From: a virus | Taxonomy: Duplodnaviria; Heunggongvirae; Uroviricota; Caudoviricetes | Virus record (IMG/VR): IMGVR_UViG_3300028584_001242 | Direction: 5' to 3' (one strand) | DNA: 64,000 nt | Part shown: positions 1 through 49,818 of the stretch, in pieces | Layout: every line of letters begins with the position of its first letter | How positions within the stretch are numbered: the stretch's first letter is position 1 | Position numbers and translations under genes: made by a program | The notes under the pieces: generated by a model | Database searches by the model: none | The model's input: only the letters and a program-made list of their open reading frames with translations | Told to the model about the DNA's origin: nothing

Positions 1-1214
1 TTGAGTTTTCACCAACAGGTGAAATAATAACAGCCAATGAGAAGTTTTTAAATTTAATGGGATACTCCCTAAATGAAATAGTAGGGAAAAAACATTCTAT
101 ATTGTGTGACAAACTATATGCAAACAGTGCTGATTACAAAAAGTTTTGGAATAAGTTAGAAGCGGGTGAATATATATCTGATATGTTTAAAAGACTTGAT
201 TCAAAACAAAAAGAAATATGGCTAGAAGCTTCTTACAATCCTATATTTGATAATAACAACAAAGTAGTAAAAGTAATAAAATTTGCAAACGATATTACTA
301 GATATGTAGAGGAAAAAAATGAAGATAAAAGTAAATTAGATGCCCTTAATTCATCTATGGCTGTTATTGAGTTTACACCTGAAGGTATTATTTTAAATGC
401 AAACAATAACTTTTTATCAACAACTGGTTATACATTAAAAGAAATAGTGGGTAAACATCATAATATATTTTGCGAAAAAGCGTATAGTCTTCATTCAGAA
501 TATAAAAGGTTTTGGCAAGATTTAAAAAATGGGCAATTTTTTAATGGTCAATTTAAAAGATTAAATAAACAAGGTAATGATATATGGCTTGAAGCAACTT
601 ATAATCCAATAAGAGACGAAAATGGAAACGTAGTTAAAATTGTTAAATTTGCAAGTGACACCACAAAATTAGTTAACCAATTAGATGCTCAAAAGAAAAG
701 TGCAGAACTTGCATTTTCAATATCAAATAATAATAAAGAAACAGCACAAATCTCAGTAACTACAATAAATGAAACAAATAATGAAATGACAAACATTATA
801 AAATCAGTCAGTGCCACAGAGATTCATTTAAAGTCATTAGAAAAACAATCTGAAAAGATTAAAATGATATTAAATGCTATATATAAGATTGCAACACAAA
901 CTAATTTGTTAGCGTTAAATGCTGCAATTGAAGCCGCCAGAGCTGGAGATGCTGGAAGAGGTTTTGCAGTAGTGGCTAAGGAAGTAAAAGAATTATCAGG
1001 CAATACAAGTGACTTAGTTAAAAGTATTTCTGAAATAATAGAGGAAATTAATAAAGAAACAGAATGTGCGGTTAAACAAATGGAAAGTGTAACTCAGAAC
1101 ACAGAAAGAAGTGTAACATTAATGATTGAAGTCGAGCAGTTAGTGACTGAAATAAGTATCGGCTCTGATAAAATATTATCAGCTATTGCCCAATTATCAA
1201 AAGAGTTAAGTTAA
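1..1214 (+). CDS. methyl-accepting chemotaxis protein with tandem PAS domains (aerotaxis-like), 5'-partial
   Basis: The reading frame is open from nt 3, upstream of the listed ATG at 57. Repeated PAS blocks ([43 protein letters not shown]) precede a C-terminal MCP signalling motif [32 protein letters not shown] terminator follows. Confidence 0.8.
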
Positions 1215-2952: not shown

Positions 2953-3087
2953 TTACTCTGCGTCTTGATGGCGATTCCGGCGACGCTTCCGAAACTCGCT
3001 ATCTTTTTTGTGATACTTCGCTTGTTCGTTGTCTTTTTTCTTGCCACCGCGAAAACGTTCTACTGCGTCACCGAAAGAGCCTTGCAT
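2953..3087 (-). CDS. small highly basic peptide, paralog 1 (44 aa, MQGSFGDAVERFRGGKKKD...RRRNRHQDAE)
   Basis: Hand-translated. AGGAGA RBS. It lies directly behind promoter-leader module A. Two paralogs are at 9019..9153 and 49687..49818. Confidence 0.5.
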   Translation of the reverse strand: MQGSFGDAVERFRGGKKKDNEQAKYHKKDSEFRKRRRNRHQDAE

Positions 3088-3140
3088 TTTGTATCTCCTA
3101 ACATTTTAGTTTGTTTGTGTTGTTTCGTTTTGATGGGATA

Positions 3141-3169
3141 AGTATATCAAGAAGCGGTTTATCGGTCAA
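3141..3169 (-). promoter_or_regulatory. sigma70-type promoter module A: TTGACC-N17-TATACT plus conserved leader TATCCCATCAAAACGAAAC
   Basis: Minus strand: -35 box at plus 3164-3169, -10 box at plus 3141-3146, 17-nt spacer. Confidence 0.6.
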
Positions 3170-3336
3170 TCATTTTTTTTCAAAAACCTTACAAACAATT
3201 TAACCTACTGTTCGTTCATATTTAACATGATATTCAATCATCGAAGCCAACATGAAAAGAATCATGCACAAGCCGAAAGAGCCAACAAGCCATAATGGAA
3301 AAGCTTCAACTGAGAACCACTCAAAAGGTTTGCACA

Positions 3337-6118: not shown

Positions 6119-6280
6119 TTAATATGATATGGCCTACTCTATTTATATCTGCACCGAGTAGTTTTCCATACTTACAAGCTATATTGGCAACCGAAGTTGT
6201 TGTTCCAAAACAAGCCACTTGTAAGAAGTGCTAGTTCATTGTTGCAAGATTTTGTTTCTCCGTTTCGTCTTGATGGGATA

Positions 6281-6309
6281 ATTATAGAGAAAATCGGTGT
6301 AGTGGTCAA
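6281..6309 (-). promoter_or_regulatory. consensus sigma70 promoter module B: TTGACC-N17-TATAAT plus leader TATCCCATCAAGACGAAAC, driving the tRNA-Leu/tRNA-CAU unit
   Basis: Minus strand: -35 box at plus 6304-6309, -10 box at plus 6281-6286. The roughly 140-nt leader contains a C(UUCG)G hairpin (plus 6188-6199). Confidence 0.65.
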
Positions 6310-6411
6310 GCACTTTTTTCTATTATTTTACCTTTATTTTCAATAAGTTGCGTAAAAAACAGTTGACAAATTAATGAAAAGACCTACACATGCAGGTCTT
6401 GGTAACGTTCA

Positions 6412-9018: not shown

Positions 9019-9153
9019 TTACTCGGCGTCTTGATGACGATTACGGCGTTTTTTACGAAAATCGTTATCTTTTTTGTGATATTTTGCCTGTTCAGTGTCT
9101 TTTTTCTTGCCGCCACGAAAACGTTCTACTGCGTCACCGAAAGAACCTTGCAT
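9019..9153 (-). CDS. small highly basic peptide, paralog 2 (44 aa, MQGSFGDAVERFRGGKKKDTEQAKYHKKDNDFRKKRRNRHQDAE)
   Basis: Hand-translated. AAAGGAT RBS. It sits behind the promoter-leader module at 9195..9275. Confidence 0.5.
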   Translation of the reverse strand: MQGSFGDAVERFRGGKKKDTEQAKYHKKDNDFRKKRRNRHQDAE

Positions 9154-9194
9154 GTTTTGTATCCTTTTAACTGGTTATGATAAGTAAGCATTAA

Positions 9195-9275
9195 CAAGGG
9201 TAAAGACTTACTGGGTTGCTCGCCCCTTGCCGCTTCAACATGGTTATTATATCAAAGTAAATCGTCAAAAACAAT
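9195..9275 (-). promoter_or_regulatory. repeated promoter-leader module (TGaTATAAT extended -10, leader hairpin CAAGGG...CCCTTG); copy of 39608..39690
   Basis: The -10 box is at plus 9246-9251 on the minus strand. The hairpin spans 9195-9229. The block matches 39620-39672 across about 45 nt. Confidence 0.5.
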
Positions 9276-11898: not shown

Positions 11899-11917
11899 CG
11901 TTTGTATCTTAAATTAG

Positions 11918-11990
11918 GAGGACCGACTGGGACTCGAACCCAGAATTCATCCGGTTAAGGACGCTTGTTCCCGTTAAACACCACCGGCCC
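11918..11990 (-). tRNA. tRNA-like gene with a contracted 6-nt anticodon loop (possible non-canonical tRNA or pseudo-tRNA)
   Basis: Acceptor GGGCCGG/TCGGTCC with two G-U pairs, D-arm TGTT-TAACGGG-AACA, canonical T-arm CTGGG-TTCGAGT-CCCAG. The anticodon arm folds only as CGTCC-TTAACC-GGATG. It has its own consensus promoter and terminator. Confidence 0.5.
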
Positions 11991-12036
11991 ATATATTACA
12001 TGTATCAAGATTTAGTTGCTTCGTCTTGATGTGATT

Positions 12037-12065
12037 ATTATATAGAAAACAGGCGTAGCTGTCAA
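12037..12065 (-). promoter_or_regulatory. consensus sigma70 promoter module C: TTGACA-N17-TATAAT plus leader AATCACATCAAGACGAAGC
   Basis: The -35 box is at plus 12060-12065 and the -10 box at plus 12037-12042. It drives the tRNA-like gene. Confidence 0.65.
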
Positions 12066-12121
12066 CAAGATCATCAATTATTTTGAAAAGAAAATAGTCT
12101 TTTTATGATGATAAAAAGGTT

Positions 12122-15822: not shown

Positions 15823-16317
15823 TTAAGCAGCTTCGGCAACCATTTCGCGTTTTTTCTTCCGTTCTTCTCTTTTTCTTGCAATGACAACAGGATCTCGACG
15901 TTCACGTTTTTTTTGCTTTTTGGCTTCCATCCTTGCCTCAAAATCGAGCATTTGGACAGCAAGTTCATCCAATGTGATAACCTGATGACCTTTTGTAGTA
16001 TTGCAGTGACAGCACATCGGCTGAAGGTTTTCAAGTTCATTGCTACCGCCATTTTTCTTAGCAGTAATATGGTCAATAGTCATCAAAACCATATCGTCAG
16101 TAAACAAGTCCCAATGCCCACCACCTTGGCTATCTCGGGAGAAAATCAACCGATTTCCGACATTCTGGCAGTTGGGCGTTACACATGCCAAGCCTTTATG
16201 GAAAAAGACACGAAGTCGTCGGTGATTTTCGAAAGCATGAATACCATTGGCTGAACGTTCACGAATAAACTTATAATTACAGCTCTGAATGTTATCACCT
16301 TTCTTGAAAGTCTTCAT
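15823..16317 (-). CDS. HNH endonuclease (homing-endonuclease-like), 164 aa
   Basis: Motif DHITAKKNGGSNELENLQPMCCHCN. Basic C-terminal tail. Confidence 0.8.
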   Translation of the reverse strand: MKTFKKGDNIQSCNYKFIRERSANGIHAFENHRRLRVFFHKGLACVTPNCQNVGNRLIFSRDSQGGGHWDLFTDDMVLMTIDHITAKKNGGSNELENLQPMCCHCNTTKGHQVITLDELAVQMLDFEARMEAKKQKKRERRDPVVIARKREERKKKREMVAEAA

Positions 16318-16329
16318 ATTCTGAATTCC

Positions 16330-16806
16330 TTAGACGGTTTCTGGAACTTCGGATTGCTGACGACGTTCAGCACGACGGTCTTCTTTGGCTTGTTTCTTGG
16401 CAATTCTTCTAGCTTCTTTGTTTTTTTTGTTCTCGACTACCAACAAGGCAAGTTCATCCAGTGTAATGTTCTGATTTTTTTTGAATGACTTGCAAACAAT
16501 ACACATTGGTTGCAAGTTGGAAAGTTCATCGTTGCCGCCATTGAATTTAGGAACAATATGATCAACAGCCATCAAAATAGCATCATCAGTGTAAACATCC
16601 CAATGCTTACCACCTTGGGGGTCAAGAGAAAAAATAAGTCGAGTGCCAACATGATTGCAATTAGGAGTTACACACGCAACACCTTTATTGACAAAGACTT
16701 TGAGACGACGATGATCTTCAAACATCTGCAAAGCAACCAAGTTACCTTCATAGACATAAGAAAAATTACAACCGGGGATTTTGTCGTCTTTTTGAAAGGT
16801 TTTCAT
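16330..16806 (-). CDS. HNH endonuclease paralog, 158 aa
   Basis: Motif DHIVPKFNGGNDELSNLQPMCIVCK. Paralog of 15823..16317. Confidence 0.8.
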   Translation of the reverse strand: MKTFQKDDKIPGCNFSYVYEGNLVALQMFEDHRRLKVFVNKGVACVTPNCNHVGTRLIFSLDPQGGKHWDVYTDDAILMAVDHIVPKFNGGNDELSNLQPMCIVCKSFKKNQNITLDELALLVVENKKNKEARRIAKKQAKEDRRAERRQQSEVPETV

Positions 16807-16859
16807 CGAAATTGCCTTGTTCTATTGAAGTTGAGTCTATTGTAACAGAAAAAAGAGGT

Positions 16860-17285
16860 TCAATCCACACATAAATCAGTTTTTTGAGTAAAAAGATAAG
16901 GCTCTGCTGTGATTTTAATGATGGTTGAATTCACCAAAAATTTTGCCGTCACTAATGAATGACGATGAACCACCACCCCTGAAATGATGGTGCCACGGTA
17001 ATTGAAGTCAACCTTTGAGCCTTTTTTCAATGTCGAAAACTCTTGTGCATAACAGGCTTTAAAATCATCTGGCATGTTATTCAATTGGCGTTTTTTAAAC
17101 TGCTGTTCATCAATACGAGTGGCATGAATAGATTCTGCTAATGGAGCACAATATTTTAAGTAATATTTACTATATGCTGTTGCCGGTTTAAAAAGAACAA
17201 TACGTTCATCTTTAGCGACAAAAGCAAGGTATGAATCACTAAATTGGTGATACTCGAAAATATCACCCACCTGCAAAAAAGTCAT
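16860..17285 (-). CDS. hypothetical protein, 141 aa
   Basis: ATGA start/stop overlap with the upstream gene. Confidence 0.5.
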   Translation of the reverse strand: MTFLQVGDIFEYHQFSDSYLAFVAKDERIVLFKPATAYSKYYLKYCAPLAESIHATRIDEQQFKKRQLNNMPDDFKACYAQEFSTLKKGSKVDFNYRGTIISGVVVHRHSLVTAKFLVNSTIIKITAEPYLFTQKTDLCVD

Positions 17286-17725
17286 TCGGACACCAGAACA
17301 GGCCGTTCAAATATTTTTCCAAACCAAAGAGCATTTTTCATGCCGGTATCAACCGATTTCATACGGCCACAAGGGCGATACATTTCACGGTTATTGAAAG
17401 TTGGACGTTTCTCATGCCAGCTCCAAAAACCATCAAGGCTACCCGTCAAGAAATTAGCCCATTCCGGGGCCGATTCCCAACTTGGACGTTGAGTGACCAT
17501 AAAGAACAATTCTGGATCAAGGTCGAAATACAAGTTGGGGTTGTTGAGTATTTTGGATGTAAACACCAAATCATTGTCGAGACAATCACGCTTAGAGCTA
17601 TGAATCAATTCATTGGTGATATCCTGATGAGGGTAATCTTCAGCCGAAACACGTTCACGCACCAGTTTTGCAATTTTGCTAATGTTGCATTCAATTTCGG
17701 AAGCGGAAATAGTAGGCTTGCACAT
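17282..17725 (-). CDS. hypothetical protein, about 147 aa
   Basis: Start MCKPTISASE after a GAGG RBS. Confidence 0.5.
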   Translation of the reverse strand: MCKPTISASEIECNISKIAKLVRERVSAEDYPHQDITNELIHSSKRDCLDNDLVFTSKILNNPNLYFDLDPELFFMVTQRPSWESAPEWANFLTGSLDGFWSWHEKRPTFNNREMYRPCGRMKSVDTGMKNALWFGKIFERPVLVSE

Positions 17726-17803
17726 GAGATTAACCTCTGTAAGTAATGACGTAATTATAACAGAATTACTGCATGTTTTCAACATCTACTCGTTTTTTAA
17801 AGA

Positions 17804-17832
17804 TTGTTTTTTGTGTTTAATTGTATTATAAT
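17804..17832 (+). promoter_or_regulatory. sigma70-like promoter TTGTTT-N17-TATAAT
   Basis: Upstream of plus-strand gene 17866..18123. Confidence 0.45.
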
Positions 17833-17865
17833 AGGTGTCCAAAACCACTTAATGGAATCTTAACA

Positions 17866-18123
17866 ATGAACACACCTGTACAAGAAATTCCTTGGCATGA
17901 AGCTCCTGCTGGTACCACACACTACGCTCCTGAAAGTGAAGACTTTCAATATGCGGAAAGCTGGTATCGTTTTGAAAACGGTGAGTGGTATTGTGTCAAC
18001 ACGTATAATGCTTGGCGTGTAGTGAATCGTGGAATTAAAGCATGGCATCATATTGGCAAGACACTCAAACGCCCAATGACTGATTTGGTTGATCGTGTTG
18101 CGTCTGTTGAATCGACAAGCTAA
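17866..18123 (+). CDS. hypothetical Trp-rich protein, about 85 aa
   Basis: Start MNTPVQEIPW downstream of the promoter. Plus-strand terminator follows. Confidence 0.5.
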   Translation: MNTPVQEIPWHEAPAGTTHYAPESEDFQYAESWYRFENGEWYCVNTYNAWRVVNRGIKAWHHIGKTLKRPMTDLVDRVASVESTS

Positions 18124-18140
18124 ATACATCAGAAATGAAA

Positions 18141-18166
18141 AGCCGGTTAATTCCGGTTTTTTTTAT
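18141..18166 (+). terminator. terminator AGCCGG-ttaatt-CCGGTT plus T8
   Basis: Hairpin with T-run. Confidence 0.55.
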
Positions 18167-18212
18167 GCCTGAAAATAGTTGGGTGTAGCCTGATTTATTG
18201 ATATATAAAAAA

Positions 18213-18245
18213 AGGCACTCCATCGCTGAAATGCCCTTTCATACC
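18213..18245. repeat. hairpin element aaaaaGGCACTCCATCGCTGAAATGCC, near-repeat of 18979..19013
   Basis: Two similar elements of about 33 nt bracket gene 18254..18901. Confidence 0.45.
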
Positions 18246-18253
18246 TGAGTGTC

Positions 18254-18901
18254 TTATTCTTTGCGAGCTTCCATTACCTGAAACAGCCCACGACCATGAA
18301 GCGGATTGGTATTGATCACACTGTTTTGGATGTAGTTCAACAACGTTGGGTATTTTTTCTGCAGATTCCTTGGCAGTTCTGCAAACAATAAATCCTTCAA
18401 GGTATTGAAGTGCCAATTATTTGGATTGTAATACACAGTATCATTTTGAGCTTTGATGGTGTAGTTACGGAAACCCAATTCACGGTATGCGGCAATTAGA
18501 GCTTCATAATCTTCCGGGTCAATGGTTTTCTTGTTGATGATCAAGGCCGCTCCCAAATCGATCTCAGGGACACGTACAGCGGCCAAAAACTCTTGGGTCA
18601 GCTTATCAACAGCGTCGTGAATACGAGCATTATTGTTTGATGTCGCAACCACTTTTTCATTGATGAGTTTCGTAAAGGTTTCCAGATCGGTGACAAGCTG
18701 CTGGTGCATTGCCAGTGCTTCCGGTGGCATCGCATGGGTTCGCAATTCCCGAACAATATCCGCAACGCTATGACTGCGATCATATTCATCGTCATAAAAA
18801 TCCGGGGTTTCTGGAACGTCTTGCAGGTTGGCCCGCAAGGCGTCTTTTGCAACAGTAAAGTCGGCCAACAAATTTTTGATTTGTTCGATAGTGAGTGTCA
18901 T
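18254..18901 (-). CDS. hypothetical protein, 215 aa; member of a 3-copy paralog family
   Basis: Shares the YxELGF.NY.I / YYNPN block with 41670..42302 and 42709..43341. Confidence 0.55.
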   Translation of the reverse strand: MTLTIEQIKNLLADFTVAKDALRANLQDVPETPDFYDDEYDRSHSVADIVRELRTHAMPPEALAMHQQLVTDLETFTKLINEKVVATSNNNARIHDAVDKLTQEFLAAVRVPEIDLGAALIINKKTIDPEDYEALIAAYRELGFRNYTIKAQNDTVYYNPNNWHFNTLKDLLFAELPRNLQKKYPTLLNYIQNSVINTNPLHGRGLFQVMEARKE

Positions 18902-18978
18902 TATTATACCTTTAAGTAAGATCGAATGTAGGAATGGAGTATACCATTAAAAAGTTTTAAAAACAAGATTAATGACAA

Positions 18979-19013
18979 AAAAGGCACCCCATCGCTGGAA
19001 TGCCTCTTGTCCA
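18979..19013. repeat. hairpin element aaaaaaGGCACCCCATCGCTGGAATGCC, near-repeat of 18213..18245
   Basis: See 18213..18245. Confidence 0.45.
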
Positions 19014-19023
19014 TCAATCGAAG

Positions 19024-19425
19024 TTAGCGAACCCAGCTATTTGCCTCGAATACCGCCATGTGCAGGGCTTGGATTTTGGCTTGGAACGAACGAACAACCA
19101 TGTCGGATTCGCCCATTTGGCAGAAGTAGGCCATCGACTTATCGAGTTCAGCGATTTGTTCAAGAACCGCCCGGTTAACGCTATGCATCTGCATCGGGTC
19201 AAGACGAACAGAACGCTCACCAGACAGTTGAGCCGAACGCATATCACAAACAAGGCCATCAAGACGATTTACAACGACTTTATGCTTAGCAAGAAGATTT
19301 TCGTTAGCCTCCTGATCCTGAGTTGCAAAATCAGTCACGCTGTCCAGAACGTGCATGTTTTTTTCGAGGCCATGAACTGCCGCAGTTACAGCACCGATGA
19401 GCAGAGCGAGAGTCGAAGTTTTCAT
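19024..19425 (-). CDS. secreted protein with signal peptide, 133 aa
   Basis: N-terminus MKTSTLALLIGAVTAAVHG. AAGGAA RBS. TCGTTGTTATAAT promoter upstream. Confidence 0.55.
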   Translation of the reverse strand: MKTSTLALLIGAVTAAVHGLEKNMHVLDSVTDFATQDQEANENLLAKHKVVVNRLDGLVCDMRSAQLSGERSVRLDPMQMHSVNRAVLEQIAELDKSMAYFCQMGESDMVVRSFQAKIQALHMAVFEANSWVR

Positions 19426-19602
19426 GTTTTTGTTTCCTTGATTGGGTTAAGTGGGATTATTATAACAACGAATAGCTTATGAAACAAGCATTTTTTTCGA
19501 ATAAAACTGAGATTTATTGTGTTTTTAATGCTTGACAGAGAAGGTTTATTTGAAGAAATAAAAAACCCGGAACCAAGTCCGGGTCTTTCTTGAGCCGTTT
19601 GG

Positions 19603-19962
19603 TTATGCGGCCATCTTTTTCAGTTGCTCAATAAAGGCTTCCGATTCGAAGCGGTCGATGTCAGCGAAGTTGTTCTGACCACCAGAATAGTCTTTCATGC
19701 CTTTGCAAGTGCGGAACAGAACCTGCAGACCACGGCCCGAAGAAGAGTCGGAGATTTGAACATAAAGGCTTTCGCTGTGCAAGGTAACTTCGCCCGACAC
19801 TGCAATGCCACCTTTGTTACTGCGAACTTCAAAACCACCTGCTGGAAGGTTAAGCTTCACAGCCAGTTCTTTCAGTGCTTTTTTACCGGCACGGTGAAAT
19901 TGATCTTTGTTGGTTTCGTTGTAGGACATTTCTTTGTTTTTCAACTGTTGAAGAGTAGCCAT
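19603..19962 (-). CDS. hypothetical protein, 119 aa
   Basis: AAGAGG RBS. Terminator downstream. Confidence 0.5.
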   Translation of the reverse strand: MATLQQLKNKEMSYNETNKDQFHRAGKKALKELAVKLNLPAGGFEVRSNKGGIAVSGEVTLHSESLYVQISDSSSGRGLQVLFRTCKGMKDYSGGQNNFADIDRFESEAFIEQLKKMAA

Positions 19963-20033
19963 GTTGATAACCTCTTAGGTATCTGTTTGTGTGAGGTAAT
20001 TATACCAATCAAAAAACACATTTACAAGGTATT

Positions 20034-20309
20034 TTAGGATTTAATCGCCAGTTTTTGATTAATGACACGAATTGTTTCGCGGGCACGGTCTGCATCACGA
20101 TCACCTTCATCGTTATCAGAATAGCGAAGGCGTTGCAAAAGTTCACGATGTTCTTTGGCGATAATTTCAAAAAACGCCAACTTTTCACGGATATCGAGCA
20201 CGTCACTTGCCAGCATAACAATAGTGGAAGTCGAAGGCATTGTTTTCTGATCAGTAATCAGTTCCAAAGCCTCTTTGGGCACAATGTATCGATCAGCCAT
20301 GATGGTCAC
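20034..20309 (-). CDS. hypothetical protein, 91 aa
   Basis: AGGTGA RBS. Confidence 0.5.
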   Translation of the reverse strand: MTIMADRYIVPKEALELITDQKTMPSTSTIVMLASDVLDIREKLAFFEIIAKEHRELLQRLRYSDNDEGDRDADRARETIRVINQKLAIKS

Positions 20310-20380
20310 CTATTTGATTAATGGGGCAAGTATACCCCATTTTTACAAGGATGTCATTTATTTCTTATGAAAACTATTTT

Positions 20381-20854
20381 TTAAGCGTCTTCAAAAGCCG
20401 TCTTAAACTTGCTGAAATAAGGCATAGGGAACATGTCTTCTGGAATGCCGATATACGCATACGCATCATCAACATAGAAGAAATAATCATGGCGTTTAGC
20501 CCATTCTTCAACCAGTTCAGTGGTTGAAGGATCAAAGCTGTGCGGATTTTTTTCATCATACAAATAATTGGGGAAATAAGCAAAACGGAAACCTTTTTTT
20601 GGAAGGTTGTTGTATCCCGTCTGCTCTGGAACGAATTGAAAGGATTCAATATTCCTGATTTCACGAATGACTTCTTGCACATTGAATAAATCATTACGAC
20701 TAAAAAATTCTTGCAAATTGAGTGAACCAAAATGGTCAAAAAAAGCAACTGCCATTTCTTCTGGGGTAGGCTCTTGTTTTGCAACAACAGGCATTGTCTT
20801 TTTTACCGACATGGGACGTTTTGGTGGGGCGGCGTTCGATTCTTCAAGATACAT
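20381..20854 (-). CDS. hypothetical protein, 157 aa
   Basis: GAGGAA RBS. Confidence 0.5.
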   Translation of the reverse strand: MYLEESNAAPPKRPMSVKKTMPVVAKQEPTPEEMAVAFFDHFGSLNLQEFFSRNDLFNVQEVIREIRNIESFQFVPEQTGYNNLPKKGFRFAYFPNYLYDEKNPHSFDPSTTELVEEWAKRHDYFFYVDDAYAYIGIPEDMFPMPYFSKFKTAFEDA

Positions 20855-24569: not shown

Positions 24570-24641
24570 TTTTGATTTCCTTCACTTCGTTGATTTGATG
24601 GGTGTAGTATACCGAAAAACTCTTATTTGGACAAGCTTTTT

Positions 24642-25217
24642 TTACAGTTTAATCAAAAGATTTTCATCTTTATCTACTGAGAAAAGGCTCGAATTTTCGA
24701 TAACGTCTTTCAAGTGTGCCAATTCAGCTTGAACACGCACTTCTGGATTTTCTGGAAGGCGGGTGACGACAATCGAAACAACATCAGTCAAATTCGACCA
24801 TGCGTTAAGGTGTTCTTGGCCGGGTTGTGCTGGCTTGATGATATGTTTTGCACGAAAACGAACATCACTGCCTTTAATAGTCAACACATCCGACTTCATG
24901 CCGTTCAGTCGGTCAGCCAACGAAACAGATTCCAGCTCAACCAGCAGATTGACCTTTTGGAAGTCAGCCAGTTCCAGTTTTTTAAGCTGTTGGCCCAAGT
25001 CGAAGGTGCCTTTGGAAAGTTCTTCCGTGTTAGGAACAACGGTGAAAATTTTGTGACCCATGCGGAAAGTGAACATGTATTCTTGTGGAACAACCACTGC
25101 AGTCTTTTCCAACTGACTCACGGCCATTTTGATGCCAGACTTGATTTGTTCAAGCTTACGTTTCAATACGACACTGGATTTGATTTCAGAGAGGTTACCA
25201 ACATTGATAGTAGACAT
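24642..25217 (-). CDS. hypothetical protein, about 192 aa
   Basis: Start MSTINVGN. Confidence 0.5.
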   Translation of the reverse strand: MSTINVGNLSEIKSSVVLKRKLEQIKSGIKMAVSQLEKTAVVVPQEYMFTFRMGHKIFTVVPNTEELSKGTFDLGQQLKKLELADFQKVNLLVELESVSLADRLNGMKSDVLTIKGSDVRFRAKHIIKPAQPGQEHLNAWSNLTDVVSIVVTRLPENPEVRVQAELAHLKDVIENSSLFSVDKDENLLIKL

Positions 25218-26815: not shown

Positions 26816-27937
26816 TTACTCGGGAATATCGACTTGTTTACGAGCAAACACCATGATAGCGGCTTGCTTGTAATCAATTTCATTGCCCGAATACTTACTG
26901 ATCAAGACATGCAGCAACAATGGAGCCACTTCTTTGGCTTTACGAGCGTAATCGCCACGTTCCAAACCTTTGTGTTCTTCATAGAAACTTTCAACGGTGC
27001 GAACAAGGTAGTGGTAGCTTTTACGGGCGTAGTCTTCTACTTCATCCAAGCGAGCCAGAATTTCAGCCAGTGGGAAGTTATCGCTGTGCGTCCGGTAATG
27101 ATACAGCGAACGAATTTCGTCCAAAATTTCGTGAAGAGTTGCTTCATAAATAACCTGACGCTCTTTCGACCGATCCTGAATATTGACCACTGCCGACATT
27201 TTCAGGTAAGGGATTGTTTTGACCTTATACATATCAGGGCCAAATTCAACTACATAACCCTCAATTTCAGGGTCATTAACGTTGAGTTCATTGATAGGGA
27301 TACGTTTCACCAAATGGGCCGCAATAACCGGGTATTTGGCAGCAAATTCAGCAGAACGAATATCGACATAAGCACCAGTGCTCATATCACGGGCTTTCAG
27401 GATATGAACAGAATAATCAGTGTATTCAATGAACACGCGGTTCTTGGGCGTGGTCAATTCCAAGTCAACCGAAACACCAGTGCGGGTCAACCGTTCAATA
27501 TCAGCATGCAACTCAGGGCTGATAGATTTTTCAACAAGGTCATAATTGGCAAAAGTTGGCTTCTTTTTGCTCTTGTAGTAAAGCGTATCGTTAACTGGCG
27601 AGATATAGCTGGTCAGCAGGGAACCATCTGGCTTCAAGTAAGCATGATCCGCTTCTTCGGGCTTGATCTTCTGAGTTTCTGGAGTTTCACCGAGCGAGAA
27701 GAATTTCTGCATTGGCAATGCCACCAGCACTGGCTCATCACCGCCCATGTAGAACATGACCCCACGGCAATCTTTAGCACCCGGAAGTTTGAATTCAGAG
27801 TGCTTTGGAATGTCATAGTTGAAGACACGGTAAGTCCCGCCGTCTACTGCTGAGGTTTCATCCCCGTATTTAAAAGACCCCGGATTAGTAACCAACAGGT
27901 TCATCAGTTGGGCATACAGTTCTTGTTGATAAGTCAT
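26816..27937 (-). CDS. RNA ligase, Rnl1 family (T4 gene 63-like), about 373 aa
   Basis: Motif I KPDGSLL. The N-terminal block YRVFNYDIP...CRGVMFYMGGDEP...QKFFSLGE is colinear with T4 Rnl1 as recalled from memory. Confidence 0.8.
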   Translation of the reverse strand: MTYQQELYAQLMNLLVTNPGSFKYGDETSAVDGGTYRVFNYDIPKHSEFKLPGAKDCRGVMFYMGGDEPVLVALPMQKFFSLGETPETQKIKPEEADHAYLKPDGSLLTSYISPVNDTLYYKSKKKPTFANYDLVEKSISPELHADIERLTRTGVSVDLELTTPKNRVFIEYTDYSVHILKARDMSTGAYVDIRSAEFAAKYPVIAAHLVKRIPINELNVNDPEIEGYVVEFGPDMYKVKTIPYLKMSAVVNIQDRSKERQVIYEATLHEILDEIRSLYHYRTHSDNFPLAEILARLDEVEDYARKSYHYLVRTVESFYEEHKGLERGDYARKAKEVAPLLLHVLISKYSGNEIDYKQAAIMVFARKQVDIPE

Positions 27938-28906: not shown

Positions 28907-30028
28907 TTAAACGGGCGGGGACAAGTCGCCAAGCTCAATTTGTTCCAACGACCAATCCACCAGATGGTTTTTAGAGTAGTGATACAAGTAGTCGTTTTTG
29001 TGACCACGAATCGCCCCCATAACAAAACCAAAGTGTTTATGGCCTTTGAGCTGAATTGCAGCAGCTTTCACGTCAACACCTTTGAATTCAGCAGCAATAT
29101 TATCAACTTCTTTCGACAACGCTTCAATCGAAGCTTTGATAGCGTCATTGATTCGATAAATCTCACTCAAATCAGCCGTTGGCGAATTCAGCGACAAATA
29201 AGCGATGTAATCATCAAGTTTTTCTTCAACCACCAACCGAGCAATATCACGCTCCCGAACAAAGCTAACCGCATGATGGAGGTTCATATACCATTTGGTT
29301 TTGATTTTGATCATGTTACCGTTAACGAATTGAATAACATAGCCTTCAATCCCTTCAACAGTGTTCAGCGACTTCAACAGGGAAGCCAAATCAAATTCTT
29401 CACCAAACAGAGGCTTGTTAACAGGAATATCAAACAACAACGCCAGTTGGTCTTTTTCAGCAGGCATTAAGTAATCGCCTGTGATGTTGTGACGAACATG
29501 AAGCAATGTCATGTTGTCTTCGTCATAACGCAAAACGATACGATGTTTTGGCGAAGTAAATTCAAAAATAGGGGTCAGTTGGGCCTGAGAGCAATATTTA
29601 GTGAACTCGTAGTATTTCTGGTTGCGAGACACAAAGCCTTCTGCCGAAACAGCCACATCCGATTTGAACGACTTCTTGGATTTAGCAAAGAATTCGCCTT
29701 TGAACAGCCCTGTGGTAATCATGGAGCCATCCATTTTATCAAACCCGGCTACCATCGTGCTCCAATCCAAAACGGCTGGCTGGACTTCTGCCCGCTCTGC
29801 CAAGTTAAAGAATTTGTGCAATGGACGCGACAGGATTTTACCATTGTCGTCAAAAGTAATACCGCGAGCTTCTTTTTCAACCGGAGTGTTGAAAGAGTCA
29901 CCGTTGCTGATGTTGTAGCAAACGATATCGGCACCGTTATCCTGTTTATTAACAGAAATATAGGCACGGTCTTTGATATGAGGAATCATATCATCAAGGG
30001 TTTCAATACGCGGGAAGATGCTGGACAT
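28907..30028 (-). CDS. RNA ligase, Rnl1 family, second paralog, 373 aa
   Basis: Motif I KMDGSMI, block ARGITFDDNGKILSRPLHKFFNLAE. Same architecture as 26816..27937. Confidence 0.75.
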   Translation of the reverse strand: MSSIFPRIETLDDMIPHIKDRAYISVNKQDNGADIVCYNISNGDSFNTPVEKEARGITFDDNGKILSRPLHKFFNLAERAEVQPAVLDWSTMVAGFDKMDGSMITTGLFKGEFFAKSKKSFKSDVAVSAEGFVSRNQKYYEFTKYCSQAQLTPIFEFTSPKHRIVLRYDEDNMTLLHVRHNITGDYLMPAEKDQLALLFDIPVNKPLFGEEFDLASLLKSLNTVEGIEGYVIQFVNGNMIKIKTKWYMNLHHAVSFVRERDIARLVVEEKLDDYIAYLSLNSPTADLSEIYRINDAIKASIEALSKEVDNIAAEFKGVDVKAAAIQLKGHKHFGFVMGAIRGHKNDYLYHYSKNHLVDWSLEQIELGDLSPPV

Positions 30029-39130: not shown

Positions 39131-39225
39131 GATAGACCTCCAAAATTTGTTAAATTATAACATAAAACTTAAAAAAGATAAACAAAAAACCCGCACGAAG
39201 CGGGCTTTTTTTAAGCTGTCTACTG

Positions 39226-39564
39226 TTAATAGTAGCTACGGTTATACAGGCGGTTAGTCGTGCGACGAAGCTGTTCTTCAAACACCCGACGCTGACCACT
39301 GGACAAGCAACGGTCTTTACTGGTTTCGATGCTAGCGATACGTTTCTGGAACATTTGATTGGCTCGCTGGGCTTCTTTTTGGGATTCAGCAAACCGAACA
39401 TCAGTTGCACGGCGAATATAGGCATTTTGAGCTTGCTTGTCAGCATTCACGATGCATTTGCGTTCAATTTGACGTTCTTTGTAGGAGCCATATTGAGCGG
39501 TTGACATGCAGCCGGTCATCATTACAAGGGCAAGAGCAGCAAAAACAATTTTCATTACTTTCAT
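39226..39564 (-). CDS. lipoprotein, 112 aa
   Basis: Lipobox MMTGC. Behind the repeated promoter-leader module. Confidence 0.55.
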   Translation of the reverse strand: MKVMKIVFAALALVMMTGCMSTAQYGSYKERQIERKCIVNADKQAQNAYIRRATDVRFAESQKEAQRANQMFQKRIASIETSKDRCLSSGQRRVFEEQLRRTTNRLYNRSYY

Positions 39565-39607
39565 GGTCGTATCCTTCTCGTTTCAATTAAGGTCGAATGA
39601 GCAATTA

Positions 39608-39690
39608 CAAGGGGAAAGGCTTATTTGATTGCTCGCCCCTTGCTGCTTCGATGGAGTAATTATATCAATATCGAACTAGATAATCAATGT
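39608..39690 (-). promoter_or_regulatory. repeated promoter-leader module (TGaTATAAT, leader hairpin CAAGGGG...CCCCTTG); copy of 9195..9275
   Basis: The -10 box is at plus 39659-39664. The hairpin spans 39608-39642. Confidence 0.5.
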
Positions 39691-40050
39691 TTTTGGTGAA
39701 TTTCTTCTGATAAGTTCGCAAAAGAAAGTGGTCATAAATTTGAGCTTCTTCCAAAAACCTTTTGGAGAAAATTGAGAACTATGATAGGTATACAAAGTAT
39801 TTCCTTTCCAATGATCAATCACCATACTACCGCGAAAAATCATCAGAGTAACGGAGTTATAATCATACTTATAGTAAGTTATTTTGCCAGAAACAGGATG
39901 AATAACTGGCTCACTGGTTGATTTGCTAAACTTAATTCTAGCTCCGACTCTGTTAAATTTGTCCTTACTAAAATATTCAACGGGCAAAGAATAACCAATA
40001 TTCATGCCAACCAGAAATCGCATCAACAAAATTTGAAAGAAGATTATCAT
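39676..40050 (-). CDS. hypothetical protein, 124 aa
   Basis: AAGGAA RBS. The listed extent overlaps the promoter module, so the true start may lie downstream. Confidence 0.4.
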   Translation of the reverse strand: MIIFFQILLMRFLVGMNIGYSLPVEYFSKDKFNRVGARIKFSKSTSEPVIHPVSGKITYYKYDYNSVTLMIFRGSMVIDHWKGNTLYTYHSSQFSPKGFWKKLKFMTTFFCELIRRNSPKTLII

Positions 40051-49597: not shown

Positions 49598-49670
49598 GGC
49601 TGTATGATGGGACTCGAACCCACGACTACCGTTTTTCGACGGAGTTCTGCCGACTGAACTACAAACAGCC
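49598..49670 (-). tRNA. tRNA-like gene with a contracted 6-nt anticodon loop, CCA not encoded
   Basis: D-arm GTTC-AGTCGGCA-GAAC (A14, G18/G19), T-arm GTGGG-TTCGAGT-CCCAT, 6/7-bp acceptor. The anticodon arm folds only as CCGT-CGAAAA-ACGG. It lies immediately downstream of basic-peptide gene 3. Confidence 0.45.
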
Positions 49671-49686
49671 AAAACTGTAAAATTCT

Positions 49687-49818
49687 TTATTCGTTAATGT
49701 GACGATCACGACGCTTCTTTCGCCAGTTCTTGTCTTGCTCATGAGTTTTTGCTTTTTCTGTGTCACGTTTTTTACCACCACGGAAACGTTCTGTTGCGTC
49801 ACCAAATGAACCTTGCAT
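49687..49818 (-). CDS. small highly basic peptide, paralog 3 (43 aa, MQGSFGDATERFRGGKKRDTEKAKTHEQDKNWRKKRRDRHINE)
   Basis: In-frame internal ATG of listed ORF 49687..49869. A TGTATAAT -10 box lies about 30 nt upstream. Confidence 0.5.
   Translation of the reverse strand: MQGSFGDATERFRGGKKRDTEKAKTHEQDKNWRKKRRDRHINE

What the first reader, a model, noticed from the sequence alone, without database searches (positions are those of the whole stretch)
9195..9275. Second promoter-leader repeat family with a CAAGGGG...CCCCTTG leader hairpin (9195..9275 and 39608..39690)
The two copies are identical at about 80% over about 45 nt: GCTCGCCCCTTGC(C/T)GCTTC(A/G)A..G...ATTATATCAA on the plus strand. On the minus strand each gives an extended -10 box TGATATAAT followed by a leader that begins ..CATCGAAGC.GCAAGGGGCGAGCAA and folds into a 6-7 bp GC stem. 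One precedes basic peptide 2 and the other a lipoprotein gene. This is a possible attenuator or protein-binding site shared by two unrelated genes.
Basis: seen in the sequence. Interest (0 to 1): 0.5.

Follow-up and report, generated by a model that had tools for sequence, protein, structure and literature searches.

The report
Conserved hairpin in phage mRNA leaders
Two genes in this large phage-like genome begin their messenger RNAs with the same roughly 50-base folded hairpin, placed just after a standard promoter; the hairpin is conserved and base-pair-compensated in distant relatives, so it is a real and apparently undescribed regulatory RNA element whose exact job is still unknown.

Summary
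Window 9185-9241 and 39598-39654 (minus strand) are two copies of a 57-nt element, 44/57 identical. Each starts 7-8 nt after an extended -10 promoter (TGATATAAT, with a TTG -35 at 17 nt).

I found 10 further distinct copies in related metagenomic contigs. All sit at the same distance from a -10 box, ahead of at least five unrelated genes. Every lipoprotein ortholog examined has one.

Across 12 distinct sequences:
- The predicted hairpin is 97% paired.
- 8 of 16 pairs show compensatory changes; 0 of 500 shuffles reach this.
- The apex CGAGCAW-N4-5-TAAGYCUUU is invariant.
- The element is 68-91% identical between relatives, against 60-76% for the adjacent coding sequence.

It is not a terminator: there is no U-tract, the apex is large, and one relative has a separate canonical terminator upstream. 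It matches no Rfam family.

It is modular. In one relative it appears as a 60-nt insertion into a hairpin-less leader, and a strain-level recombination junction falls inside it.

The most likely function, which is inferred, is an operator hairpin bound by a trans-acting factor that controls translation or stability of a small set of early mRNAs. Rivals are a plain 5' stabiliser and an RNase III-type processing site.

The closest known relatives are the PeSL cassettes of T4-type phages, but their terminator criterion is not met.

The parts
9269..9274 (-). Site 1: -35-like hexamer TTGTTT, 17 nt upstream of the -10
   Evidence: Read. It aligns with the TTGATT of site 2. Only 3 of 6 positions match the consensus, so the scan does not list it.
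9246..9254 (-). Site 1: extended -10, TGATATAAT
9185..9241 (-). Site 1: 57-nt leader element. The predicted transcription start is near 9239 (inferred). The hairpin spans 9187-9234: P1 AAGCG/UGCUU, a 3-nt bulge, P2 GCAAGGG/CCCUUGU, and the apex CGAGCAACCCAGUAAGUCUUU.
   Evidence: Covariance-model hits of 75.3 bits, E 1.4e-19 and 68.6 bits. Fold.
9162..9166 (-). Site 1: Shine-Dalgarno AAGGA
9019..9153 (-). Gene downstream of site 1: a 44-aa basic peptide. It is one of three paralogs in the window; the other two have different, hairpin-less leaders.
   Evidence: (family D2). No Pfam or NCBIfam family.
39682..39687 (-). Site 2: -35 hexamer TTGATT
   Evidence: TTGATT-17-TATAAT, TG present, 10 of 12 matches
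39659..39667 (-). Site 2: extended -10, TGATATAAT
39598..39654 (-). Site 2: 57-nt leader element. The predicted transcription start is near 39652 (inferred). The hairpin spans 39600-39647. An extra outer UCGA/UCGA stem reaches position +2.
   Evidence: Covariance-model hits of 86.1 bits, E 9e-23 and 82.5 bits. Fold z-score -3.1. Full-leader fold.
39572..39576 (-). Site 2: Shine-Dalgarno AAGGA
39226..39564 (-). Gene downstream of site 2: a 112-aa lipoprotein. All orthologs examined in relatives carry the same leader hairpin.
39184..39210 (-). Canonical intrinsic terminator closing the site-2 cassette. It shows what real terminators look like in this genome.
   Evidence: 11-bp stem, 5-nt loop, U-run

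Best explanation
SHOWN.
- Each site is a sigma-70-type promoter with an extended -10. A 57-nt module follows directly after it.
- On the gene (minus) strand the module folds into an irregular hairpin that starts about 5 nt from the predicted 5' end of the mRNA.
- The hairpin has these parts, from the base up:
  - P1, 4-5 bp with an invariant GC/GC core.
  - A 3-nt bulge on the 3' strand.
  - P2, 8 bp, which covaries freely.
  - A C/U mismatch.
  - An invariant apex, CGAGCAW-N4-5-UAAGYCUUU. This may form a short P3 capped by a 9-10-nt A-rich loop.
- The start codon follows 15-35 nt later, behind an accessible AAGGA Shine-Dalgarno.
- The module is conserved more strongly than the adjacent coding sequence.
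- It is found ahead of unrelated genes, and always ahead of one lipoprotein gene.
- It behaves as a cassette that can be inserted into, or recombined at, ordinary hairpin-less promoter-leaders.

INFERRED (the mechanism I commit to).
- The hairpin is an RNA operator. P2 presents the invariant apex to a sequence-specific trans-acting factor.
- That factor is most likely a protein encoded by the element or its host.
- Binding next to the 5' end and the ribosome-binding site sets the translation and/or lifetime of a small regulon of early transcripts.
- The logic resembles the T4 gp43 operator hairpin or an iron-responsive element.
For: Copies and structure:
- Two copies in the window, both on the gene strand, E 1e-18 to 1e-22.
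- Ten more distinct copies in relatives, all 7-8 nt after a TATAAT or TATACT -10.
- Across 12 distinct sequences, 97.4% of cells are paired, against 43-54% when the partners are slid.
- 8 of 16 pairs have changes on both sides; 0 of 500 shuffles reach any of the measures.
- RNAalifold predicts the same structure independently.

Apex:
- C20-A25, U32-G35 and C37-U40 are invariant, while P2 changes completely. An example is CUAGAAGU/ACUUCUAG in L097.

Conservation and strand:
- The element is 68-91% identical between lipoprotein orthologs. The promoter is 48-76%, the spacer 38-77%, the coding DNA 60-76% and the protein 43-75%.
- 30 G-U cells would be A-C mismatches on the other strand (derived).

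Ribosome-binding site and precedent:
- The Shine-Dalgarno region is mostly unpaired in the full-leader folds, so the hairpin does not itself occlude the ribosome-binding site.
- Precedent for a conserved-apex operator hairpin upstream of a ribosome-binding site in phage: T4 and RB69 gp43 (PMC3014915).
Against: - No binding factor has been identified. Pfam and PHROGs scans of 93 window ORFs show no recognisable RNA-binding regulator.
- The invariant apex could instead reflect a tertiary fold or a nuclease recognition site.
- The upper P3 pairs never vary, so they are unproven.
- Minimum free energies of the sense and antisense strands are similar (-14.5 vs -13.3 kcal/mol on average). Site 1 alone folds no better than shuffles (z -0.9).
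- The transcription start is inferred from the promoter geometry only.
- The alignment used for pair counts was fitted to the model, although it is essentially ungapped.
Confidence: 0.4

Rival explanations
1. A plain 5'-terminal stabiliser. The hairpin near the 5' end protects the mRNA from 5'-end-dependent decay (RppH/RNase E), as with the ompA-type 5' stem-loops. No specific binding partner is involved.
For: - The hairpin begins about 5 nt from the predicted 5' end.
- In the lipoprotein leaders of the window's closest relatives, an outer UCGA/UCGA stem pairs from position +2.
- The stem pairing is what covaries.
- The stabiliser mechanism itself is from my own knowledge of E. coli mRNA decay.
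Against: - A stabiliser needs only a stable stem. It does not explain about 17 invariant apex nucleotides kept between relatives whose proteins are 43-50% identical.
- Several copies leave 4-6 unpaired 5' nucleotides.
- Most upstream genes lack a terminator, so many transcripts would carry the hairpin internally.
Confidence: 0.2
2. An endonuclease processing site, RNase III-like as in the T7 intercistronic sites. A cut in or near the 3-nt bulge separates read-through transcripts from the upstream gene. The upstream RNA is left with a protective 3' hairpin, and the downstream gene gets a defined 5' end.
For: - An irregular three-part helix with an asymmetric bulge lies in an intergenic position.
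- 9 of 10 copies have no terminator between the upstream stop codon and the promoter, so read-through is expected (and the gene tables).
- Conserved sequence around the helix is typical of nuclease sites. The T7 analogy is from my own knowledge.
Against: - The helix has only 16-17 pairs including G-U, a mismatch and bulges. That is short for RNase III.
- The 9-10-nt apical loop and the invariant apex are not features of known RNase III sites.
- Nothing here tests cleavage.
Confidence: 0.15
3. Primarily a DNA-level recombination cassette of the PeSL kind. The conserved promoter plus stem-loop persists because it mediates shuffling of the flanking ORFans, not because the RNA does anything.
For: - L083 is 99% identical to the window except for a replaced segment of about 360-400 nt. 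Its right junction lies in the promoter / 5' arm of the site-2 hairpin.
- In L086 the hairpin is a 60-nt insertion into the leader of a gene whose window ortholog has a hairpin-less leader.
- The three basic-peptide paralogs have three different promoter-leaders.
- PeSL biology is described in PMC2839356.
Against: - Recombination homology does not require compensatory base changes or G-U-tolerant pairing.
- It also does not explain higher conservation than in coding DNA across deep divergence.
- The two roles are not mutually exclusive.
Confidence: 0.1
4. A terminator of the upstream gene or an attenuator.
For: - A G-tract/C-tract stem as in many PeSL stem-loops.
- No separate terminator upstream in 9 of 10 copies.
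Against: - No U-tract after the stem in 9 of 10 copies.
- 21-23 nt lie between the G and C arms.
- The terminator scan does not call it, while it does call the genome's many canonical terminators.
- L086 has a canonical terminator upstream of the promoter and still has the hairpin downstream.
- The hairpin lies downstream of its own promoter's start site, so it would also stop that promoter's transcripts.
Confidence: 0.05
5. A processive antitermination signal, like lambda nut boxB/boxA or HK022 put, that modifies RNA polymerase soon after initiation.
For: - Two copies per region, each just downstream of an early-type promoter.
- Some copies have a boxA-like UGCUCU/UGCUCA after the hairpin.
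Against: - The boxA-like stretch is not conserved across copies.
- The hairpin is unlike boxB (a 5-bp stem with a pentaloop) or the two-stem put RNA. Both comparisons are from my own knowledge.
- The window lipoprotein unit is monocistronic and ends at a strong terminator followed by a new promoter.
Confidence: 0.05

Closest known systems
PeSL (promoter-early stem-loop) cassettes of T4-type phages (Arbiol et al. 2010, PMC2839356; Comeau et al. 2014, PMC4122927)
   Same: - A strong sigma-70-like early promoter is coupled to a stem-loop with a G-tract followed by a C-tract.
- It lies upstream of small genes of unknown function.
- The same gene is found with different cassettes and the same cassette with different genes.
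- A recombination junction lies inside the motif.
   Different: - PeSL stem-loops sit from upstream of -35 to just before the start site and act as terminators.
- Here the stem-loop is transcribed (+6 to +55), has no U-tract, has a large invariant apex, and shows RNA-type covariation.
- This family has only 2 copies per 64 kb, against about 50 PeSLs per genome.
- The host genome is not demonstrably T4-type.
Phage translational operator hairpins, e.g. T4/RB69 gp43 (review PMC3014915)
   Same: - A hairpin upstream of the ribosome-binding site.
- Its apex nucleotides are conserved between diverged phages while the stem differs.
- It lies in early transcripts.
   Different: - The gp43 operator is autoregulatory, serves a single gene, is 16-18 nt, and extends over the ribosome-binding site.
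- This element is about 50 nt, sits at the 5' end, leaves the ribosome-binding site free, and serves several unrelated genes.
- No binding protein is known.
T7-type intercistronic RNase III processing sites
   Same: - Irregular hairpins with an asymmetric internal loop or bulge.
- They lie between genes and near promoters in early regions and are repeated within a genome.
- The T7 features are from my own knowledge.
   Different: A shorter helix, a large conserved apical loop, and no evidence of cleavage.
5' stabiliser stem-loops of bacterial mRNAs (ompA type)
   Same: A stem-loop within a few nucleotides of the 5' end, ahead of an accessible ribosome-binding site.
   Different: Stabilisers have no requirement for a conserved loop sequence.

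Membership tests
PeSL cassette | Sigma-70-like early promoter (-35, -10, AT-rich upstream region) | tested here: met
   Site 2: TTGATT-17-TATAAT with TG. Site 1: TTGTTT-17-TGATATAAT. The upstream regions are A-rich.
PeSL cassette | Adjacent stem-loop, often a G-tract followed by a C-tract | tested here: met
   CAAGGGG...CCCCTTG
PeSL cassette | The stem-loop lies between the upstream AT-rich region and the transcription start, and acts as a terminator for upstream transcription (PMC2839356) | tested here: not met
   - The hairpin spans about +6 to +55 of the predicted transcript.
- It has no U-tract and is not called by the terminator scan.
- L086 has a separate canonical terminator upstream.
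- Termination itself cannot be assayed here.
PeSL cassette | Serves as a crossover point for gene shuffling | tested here: inconclusive
   There is one strain-level replacement with a junction in the element and one insertion/deletion of the module. This is suggestive, but there are only two events.
Intrinsic (Rho-independent) terminator | GC-rich stem, 3-8-nt loop, followed by a U-tract | tested here: not met
   Searches do not list it. The 3' flanks lack a U-run, except in L097b.
Any Rfam family (riboswitches, small ribozymes, known phage RNAs) | Covariance-model match | tested here: not met
   No hit at gathering score. At E up to 10 on both sites there are only eukaryotic lncRNA and snoRNA noise hits.
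Lambda-type nut site | boxA consensus (CGCUCUUA / UGCUCUUUA) plus a boxB 5-bp stem with a pentaloop | tested here: not met
   The 3' flank is variable across copies (UGCUCAUUC, UGCUUACUU, UGCUAAAUA, UGCCUCUAU and others). The hairpin geometry is different.
RNase III substrate | About two turns of mostly regular double-stranded RNA, with cleavage in vitro or in vivo | not testable with these tools
   The helix has 16 predicted pairs, interrupted by a bulge, a mismatch and a bulged Y. Cleavage cannot be assayed here.
Conserved structured RNA motif (generic criteria) | Compensatory base changes in independent sequences, above controls | tested here: met
   8 of 16 pairs have changes on both sides and 97.4% of cells are paired. 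0 of 500 shuffles reach this, and the slid controls give 43-54%.

The most novel reading that the evidence does not exclude
The hairpin is the operator of a previously unknown post-transcriptional regulon in an uncultured clade of very large phage-like elements. These sit on contigs of 223-498 kb, and possibly over 1 Mb. A clade-specific RNA-binding protein would recognise the invariant CGAGCAW...UAAGYCUUU apex and switch a set of early cassettes (lipoprotein, basic peptide and others) on or off. The operator spreads to new genes as a 50-60-nt mobile leader module.
Probability: 0.3. Interest if true: 0.6.

Novelty: new variant of a known kind. Interest (0 to 1): 0.45.

Why it matters
Huge phages carry hundreds of genes of unknown function, and little is known about how they are timed and dosed.

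This is a compact, strongly conserved leader RNA with clear covariation. It is attached to a defined small set of early genes and moves between genes as a module. That gives a concrete handle:
- It defines a candidate regulon.
- It offers a bait for finding the regulator.
- It extends the PeSL idea of mobile regulatory cassettes from promoter/terminator DNA motifs to a transcribed, structured RNA part.

It is also a ready candidate for a new RNA family, with 12 distinct seed sequences.

Tried and rejected
Database searches that gave nothing:
- Megablast of the window region against phage records: no match.
- blastn of the leader against phage records: only a 21-nt chance hit.
- tblastn of the L086 gene against phage records: none.

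Pattern scans of public collections:
- Exact 15-mer scan of IMG/VR: 81 hits, all chance with no flanking similarity.
- The 19-base pattern: none in IMG/VR. In metagenomes there was 1 real hit (L086) and 2 chance hits. In GTDB genomes there were 2 chance hits in Treponema MAGs.
- Further IMG/VR scans: one chance hit (L091), one real hit (L125), and 34 chance hits including L137, L153 and L166.

Structural and mechanistic ideas tested:
- Rfam: nothing.
- A pseudoknot between GAGCAAU in the loop and AUUGCUC downstream at site 2. It is not conserved at site 1 or in relatives, and it competes with P1 (by eye).
- Anti-Shine-Dalgarno sequestration by CCUUU. It gives only 4-5 bp, is not conserved in L097, and the Shine-Dalgarno region is predicted to be open.
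- An antisense partner for the apex within the window: none.
- boxA-like and MotA-box-like readings of ...UGCU(U/C)A...: the spacing or the conservation is wrong.

Searches for partners and context:
- Pfam and NCBIfam on the downstream genes: no function.
- Exact-protein look-ups around site 1 failed or gave a contig that stops inside the peptide gene. The look-up for the left-end chemoreceptor also failed.

Full report
**1. The observation**

The window is a gene-dense region with about 38% G+C. Nearly all genes are on the minus strand. It is full of sigma-70-like promoters and canonical hairpin-plus-U terminators.

- It has no close relative among deposited phages.
- Its gene content is typical of a large phage accessory or early region. 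It holds two T4-type RNA ligases, a polynucleotide-kinase-like ATPase, NUDIX, many HNH genes, tRNAs, and mostly ORFans.
- The best RNA-ligase match is the Ralstonia jumbo phage RsoM2USA, at 42% amino-acid identity.

Read on the minus strand, both show this order:
- a TTG-type -35;
- a 17-nt spacer;
- TGATATAAT;
- 7-8 nt;
- a shared 57-nt block;
- an A-rich spacer;
- AAGGAUAC;
- the start codon.

The ungapped identity is 44/57 in the block and 57/74 from the -10 flank. That is P about 1e-9 after correcting for all pairs in the window.

The genes behind the two sites are a 44-aa basic peptide and a lipoprotein.

**2. Copies elsewhere**

Exact-word and degenerate-pattern scans of IMG/VR, JGI metagenomes and GTDB genomes gave mostly chance hits. 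I rejected those because nothing beyond the pattern matched. Two hits were real:
- L086, a 1.6-kb metagenome contig.
- L125, from a 290-kb IMG/VR viral contig.

Looking up contigs that encode homologs of two window proteins brought in more relatives. A covariance model found the element in L082-L085, L093, L097-L099 (two copies each) and L129-L133.

That makes 12 distinct sequences in all. Every one lies 7-8 nt downstream of a TATAAT or TATACT -10 box and 15-35 nt upstream of a start codon. With filters off, the window itself holds only the two copies.

**3. Structure**

RNAalifold and the single-sequence folds agree on one irregular hairpin:
- P1: columns 8-11 with 52-55.
- A 3-nt bulge on the 3' strand.
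- P2: columns 12-19 with 41-48.
- A C20/U40 mismatch.
- A possible P3: G-U, A-U, G-C, a bulged pyrimidine, then C-G.
- A 9-10-nt A-rich loop.

On the 12 distinct sequences:
- 97.4% of pair cells are standard pairs. Sliding the partners by 1-3 columns gives 43-54%.
- 8 of 16 pairs have changes on both sides. Examples of P2 are CAAGGGG/CCCCUUG, UAAGGGG/CUUCUUA, CAAGAGG/CCUCUUG, CAAUGGU/ACCAUUG and CUAGAAGU/ACUUCUAG.
- None of 500 column shuffles reaches any of the measures.

Caveats:
- The alignment was made by the model, though it contains a single one-base gap.
- The P3 pairs never vary, so they are not proven.

The apex is invariant: C20-A25, U32-G35 and C37-U40.

Thirty cells are G-U pairs that would be A-C mismatches on the other strand. 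This, together with the promoter and gene orientation, points to the sense RNA. By energy alone the two strands are nearly equal (-14.5 vs -13.3 kcal/mol), so the strand argument rests on G-U pairs and context.

**4. Selection**

Between lipoprotein orthologs:

| Region | Identity |
|---|---|
| Element | 68-91% |
| Promoter | 48-76% |
| Spacer to the start codon | 38-77% |
| Coding DNA | 60-76% |
| Protein | 43-75% |

L086 comes from a relative whose 206-aa protein is only about 40% identical to the window's ortholog. Even so, its hairpin apex is identical. The element is therefore under stronger constraint than the genes it precedes.

**5. Not a terminator, not a known RNA**

- No U-tract follows the stem in 9 of 10 contexts.
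- The terminator scan ignores it, while it does find the genome's many canonical terminators.
- In L086 a canonical terminator sits upstream of the promoter and the hairpin sits downstream.
- Rfam gives nothing, even at E = 10.
- Full-leader folds keep the hairpin and leave the Shine-Dalgarno region mostly open. The hairpin therefore does not mask the ribosome-binding site by itself.

**6. Modularity**

- The first bases of the block (CCAUCRAA) are also the start of hairpin-less leaders of the other promoter family, for example 3129-3136 and 24594-24601.
- The window ortholog of the L086 gene (23949-24569) has such a hairpin-less leader. Aligning the two shows homologous promoter and Shine-Dalgarno-proximal parts, with a clean 60-nt insertion carrying the hairpin in L086.
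- The three paralogs of the basic peptide have three different promoter-leaders, and only one has the hairpin.
- L083 is 99% identical to the window on both sides of a replaced segment of about 360-400 nt. The right junction of that segment falls in the promoter / 5' arm of the site-2 hairpin.
- In the near-identical strains L084 and L085, the two substitutions inside the element both keep pairing: G-C to G-U, and G-U to G-C.

**7. Mechanism**

What is shown is a selected, sense-strand, 5'-proximal RNA hairpin with a covarying stem and an invariant apex. It is shared by at least five unrelated genes and is obligatory for one lipoprotein gene.

A covarying stem that presents an invariant apex is the signature of sequence-specific recognition by a trans-acting factor. 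A phage precedent is the gp43 operator, whose top bases are conserved between T4 and RB69 (PMC3014915).

I therefore favour an operator hairpin that lets a factor control translation or stability of a small early regulon (confidence about 0.4).

Rivals:
- A plain 5' stabiliser (0.2). It fits the position but not the invariant apex.
- An RNase III-type processing or insulating site (0.15). It fits the irregular helix and the lack of upstream terminators in 9 of 10 contexts, but the helix is short.
- A DNA-level recombination cassette only (0.1). It does not explain the covariation.
- A terminator or attenuator (0.05).
- A nut/put-like antitermination signal (0.05).

No RNA-binding regulator is recognisable among the window's ORFs. 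No antisense partner for the apex exists in the window.

**8. Comparison with known systems**

The closest described system is the PeSL cassette of T4-type phages (PMC2839356 and PMC4122927). The promoter, the G/C stem-loop and the shuffling behaviour match.

The defining placement and terminator function of the PeSL stem-loop were tested and not met. I therefore do not file this as a PeSL. It works like a PeSL as a mobile regulatory module, but the stem-loop is a transcribed, structured leader.

It is a new RNA motif of a known general kind.

**9. Verdict**

The element is novel at the level of a new variant of a known kind. Interest is moderate (0.45): this is a well-supported new cis-regulatory RNA in an uncultured clade of very large phage-like elements, and its function is still to be determined.

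Noticed in passing
Loci L093, L096, L125, L129; protein clusters P0003, P0007, P0014, P0025, P0039, P0040, P0045: Orthologs of window genes lie on very long contigs.
- Retrieved contigs: 290 kb (an IMG/VR viral contig), 498 kb, 1.28 Mb and 1.54 Mb.
- Other clusters list longest contigs of 0.68, 0.83 and 1.84-1.92 Mb, from several independent assemblies.
- The largest published phage genome I found is 841 kb (bioRxiv 10.1101/2025.01.14.633092).
- These contigs could be a host chromosome with an integrated element, an assembly artefact, or an exceptionally large element.
   Followed up: partly
L097-L099, about 16100-20600: The 223-kb Logan contigs that carry two copies of the hairpin also encode an I-type conjugation / type IV secretion cluster. 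Its genes are PilS, DotD, TraI, a T2SSE ATPase, IcmT and TcpQ. The cluster lies about 6 kb from the phage-like gene block.
   Followed up: no
window 57-1214 (+): This is one of the few plus-strand genes. It is a PAS-domain methyl-accepting chemotaxis-type protein, which is unusual in a phage-like region. An exact-sequence look-up found no other contig.
   Followed up: partly
window 2955-3086, 9019-9153, 49686-49817 (all minus): There are three paralogs of a 44-aa highly basic peptide (MQGSFGDA..ERFRGGKK...RKKRRNRH). Each sits behind a different promoter-leader. No family match was found.
   Followed up: partly
window 11917-11990 (-) and 49598-49668 (-): ARAGORN reports two tRNA-like genes with an undetermined two-base 'aa' anticodon. 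The second is also an Rfam tRNA hit at 42.9 bits. They may be tRNAs with unusual anticodon loops.
   Followed up: no
window 3122-3179, 6262-6319, 12018-12075, 24587-24644 and others (family D1); also families D3 and D4: The window has several further families of repeated promoter-leaders. They follow the pattern TTGAC-17-TATACT/TATAAT and then CCCAUCAAA.... They have no hairpin and share the initial transcribed sequence with the hairpin family.
   Followed up: partly
window 39672-40030 vs L083:2486-2892: This is an allelic replacement of the 124-aa gene upstream of site 2 by a diverged 133-aa version. The two strains are otherwise 99% identical.
   Followed up: yes
window 26819-27937 (-) and 28907-30028 (-): There are two T4-type RNA ligase genes (Pfam RNA_lig_T4_1), plus an AAA_33/polynucleotide-kinase-like gene. 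Together they suggest an RNA-repair module.
   Followed up: no
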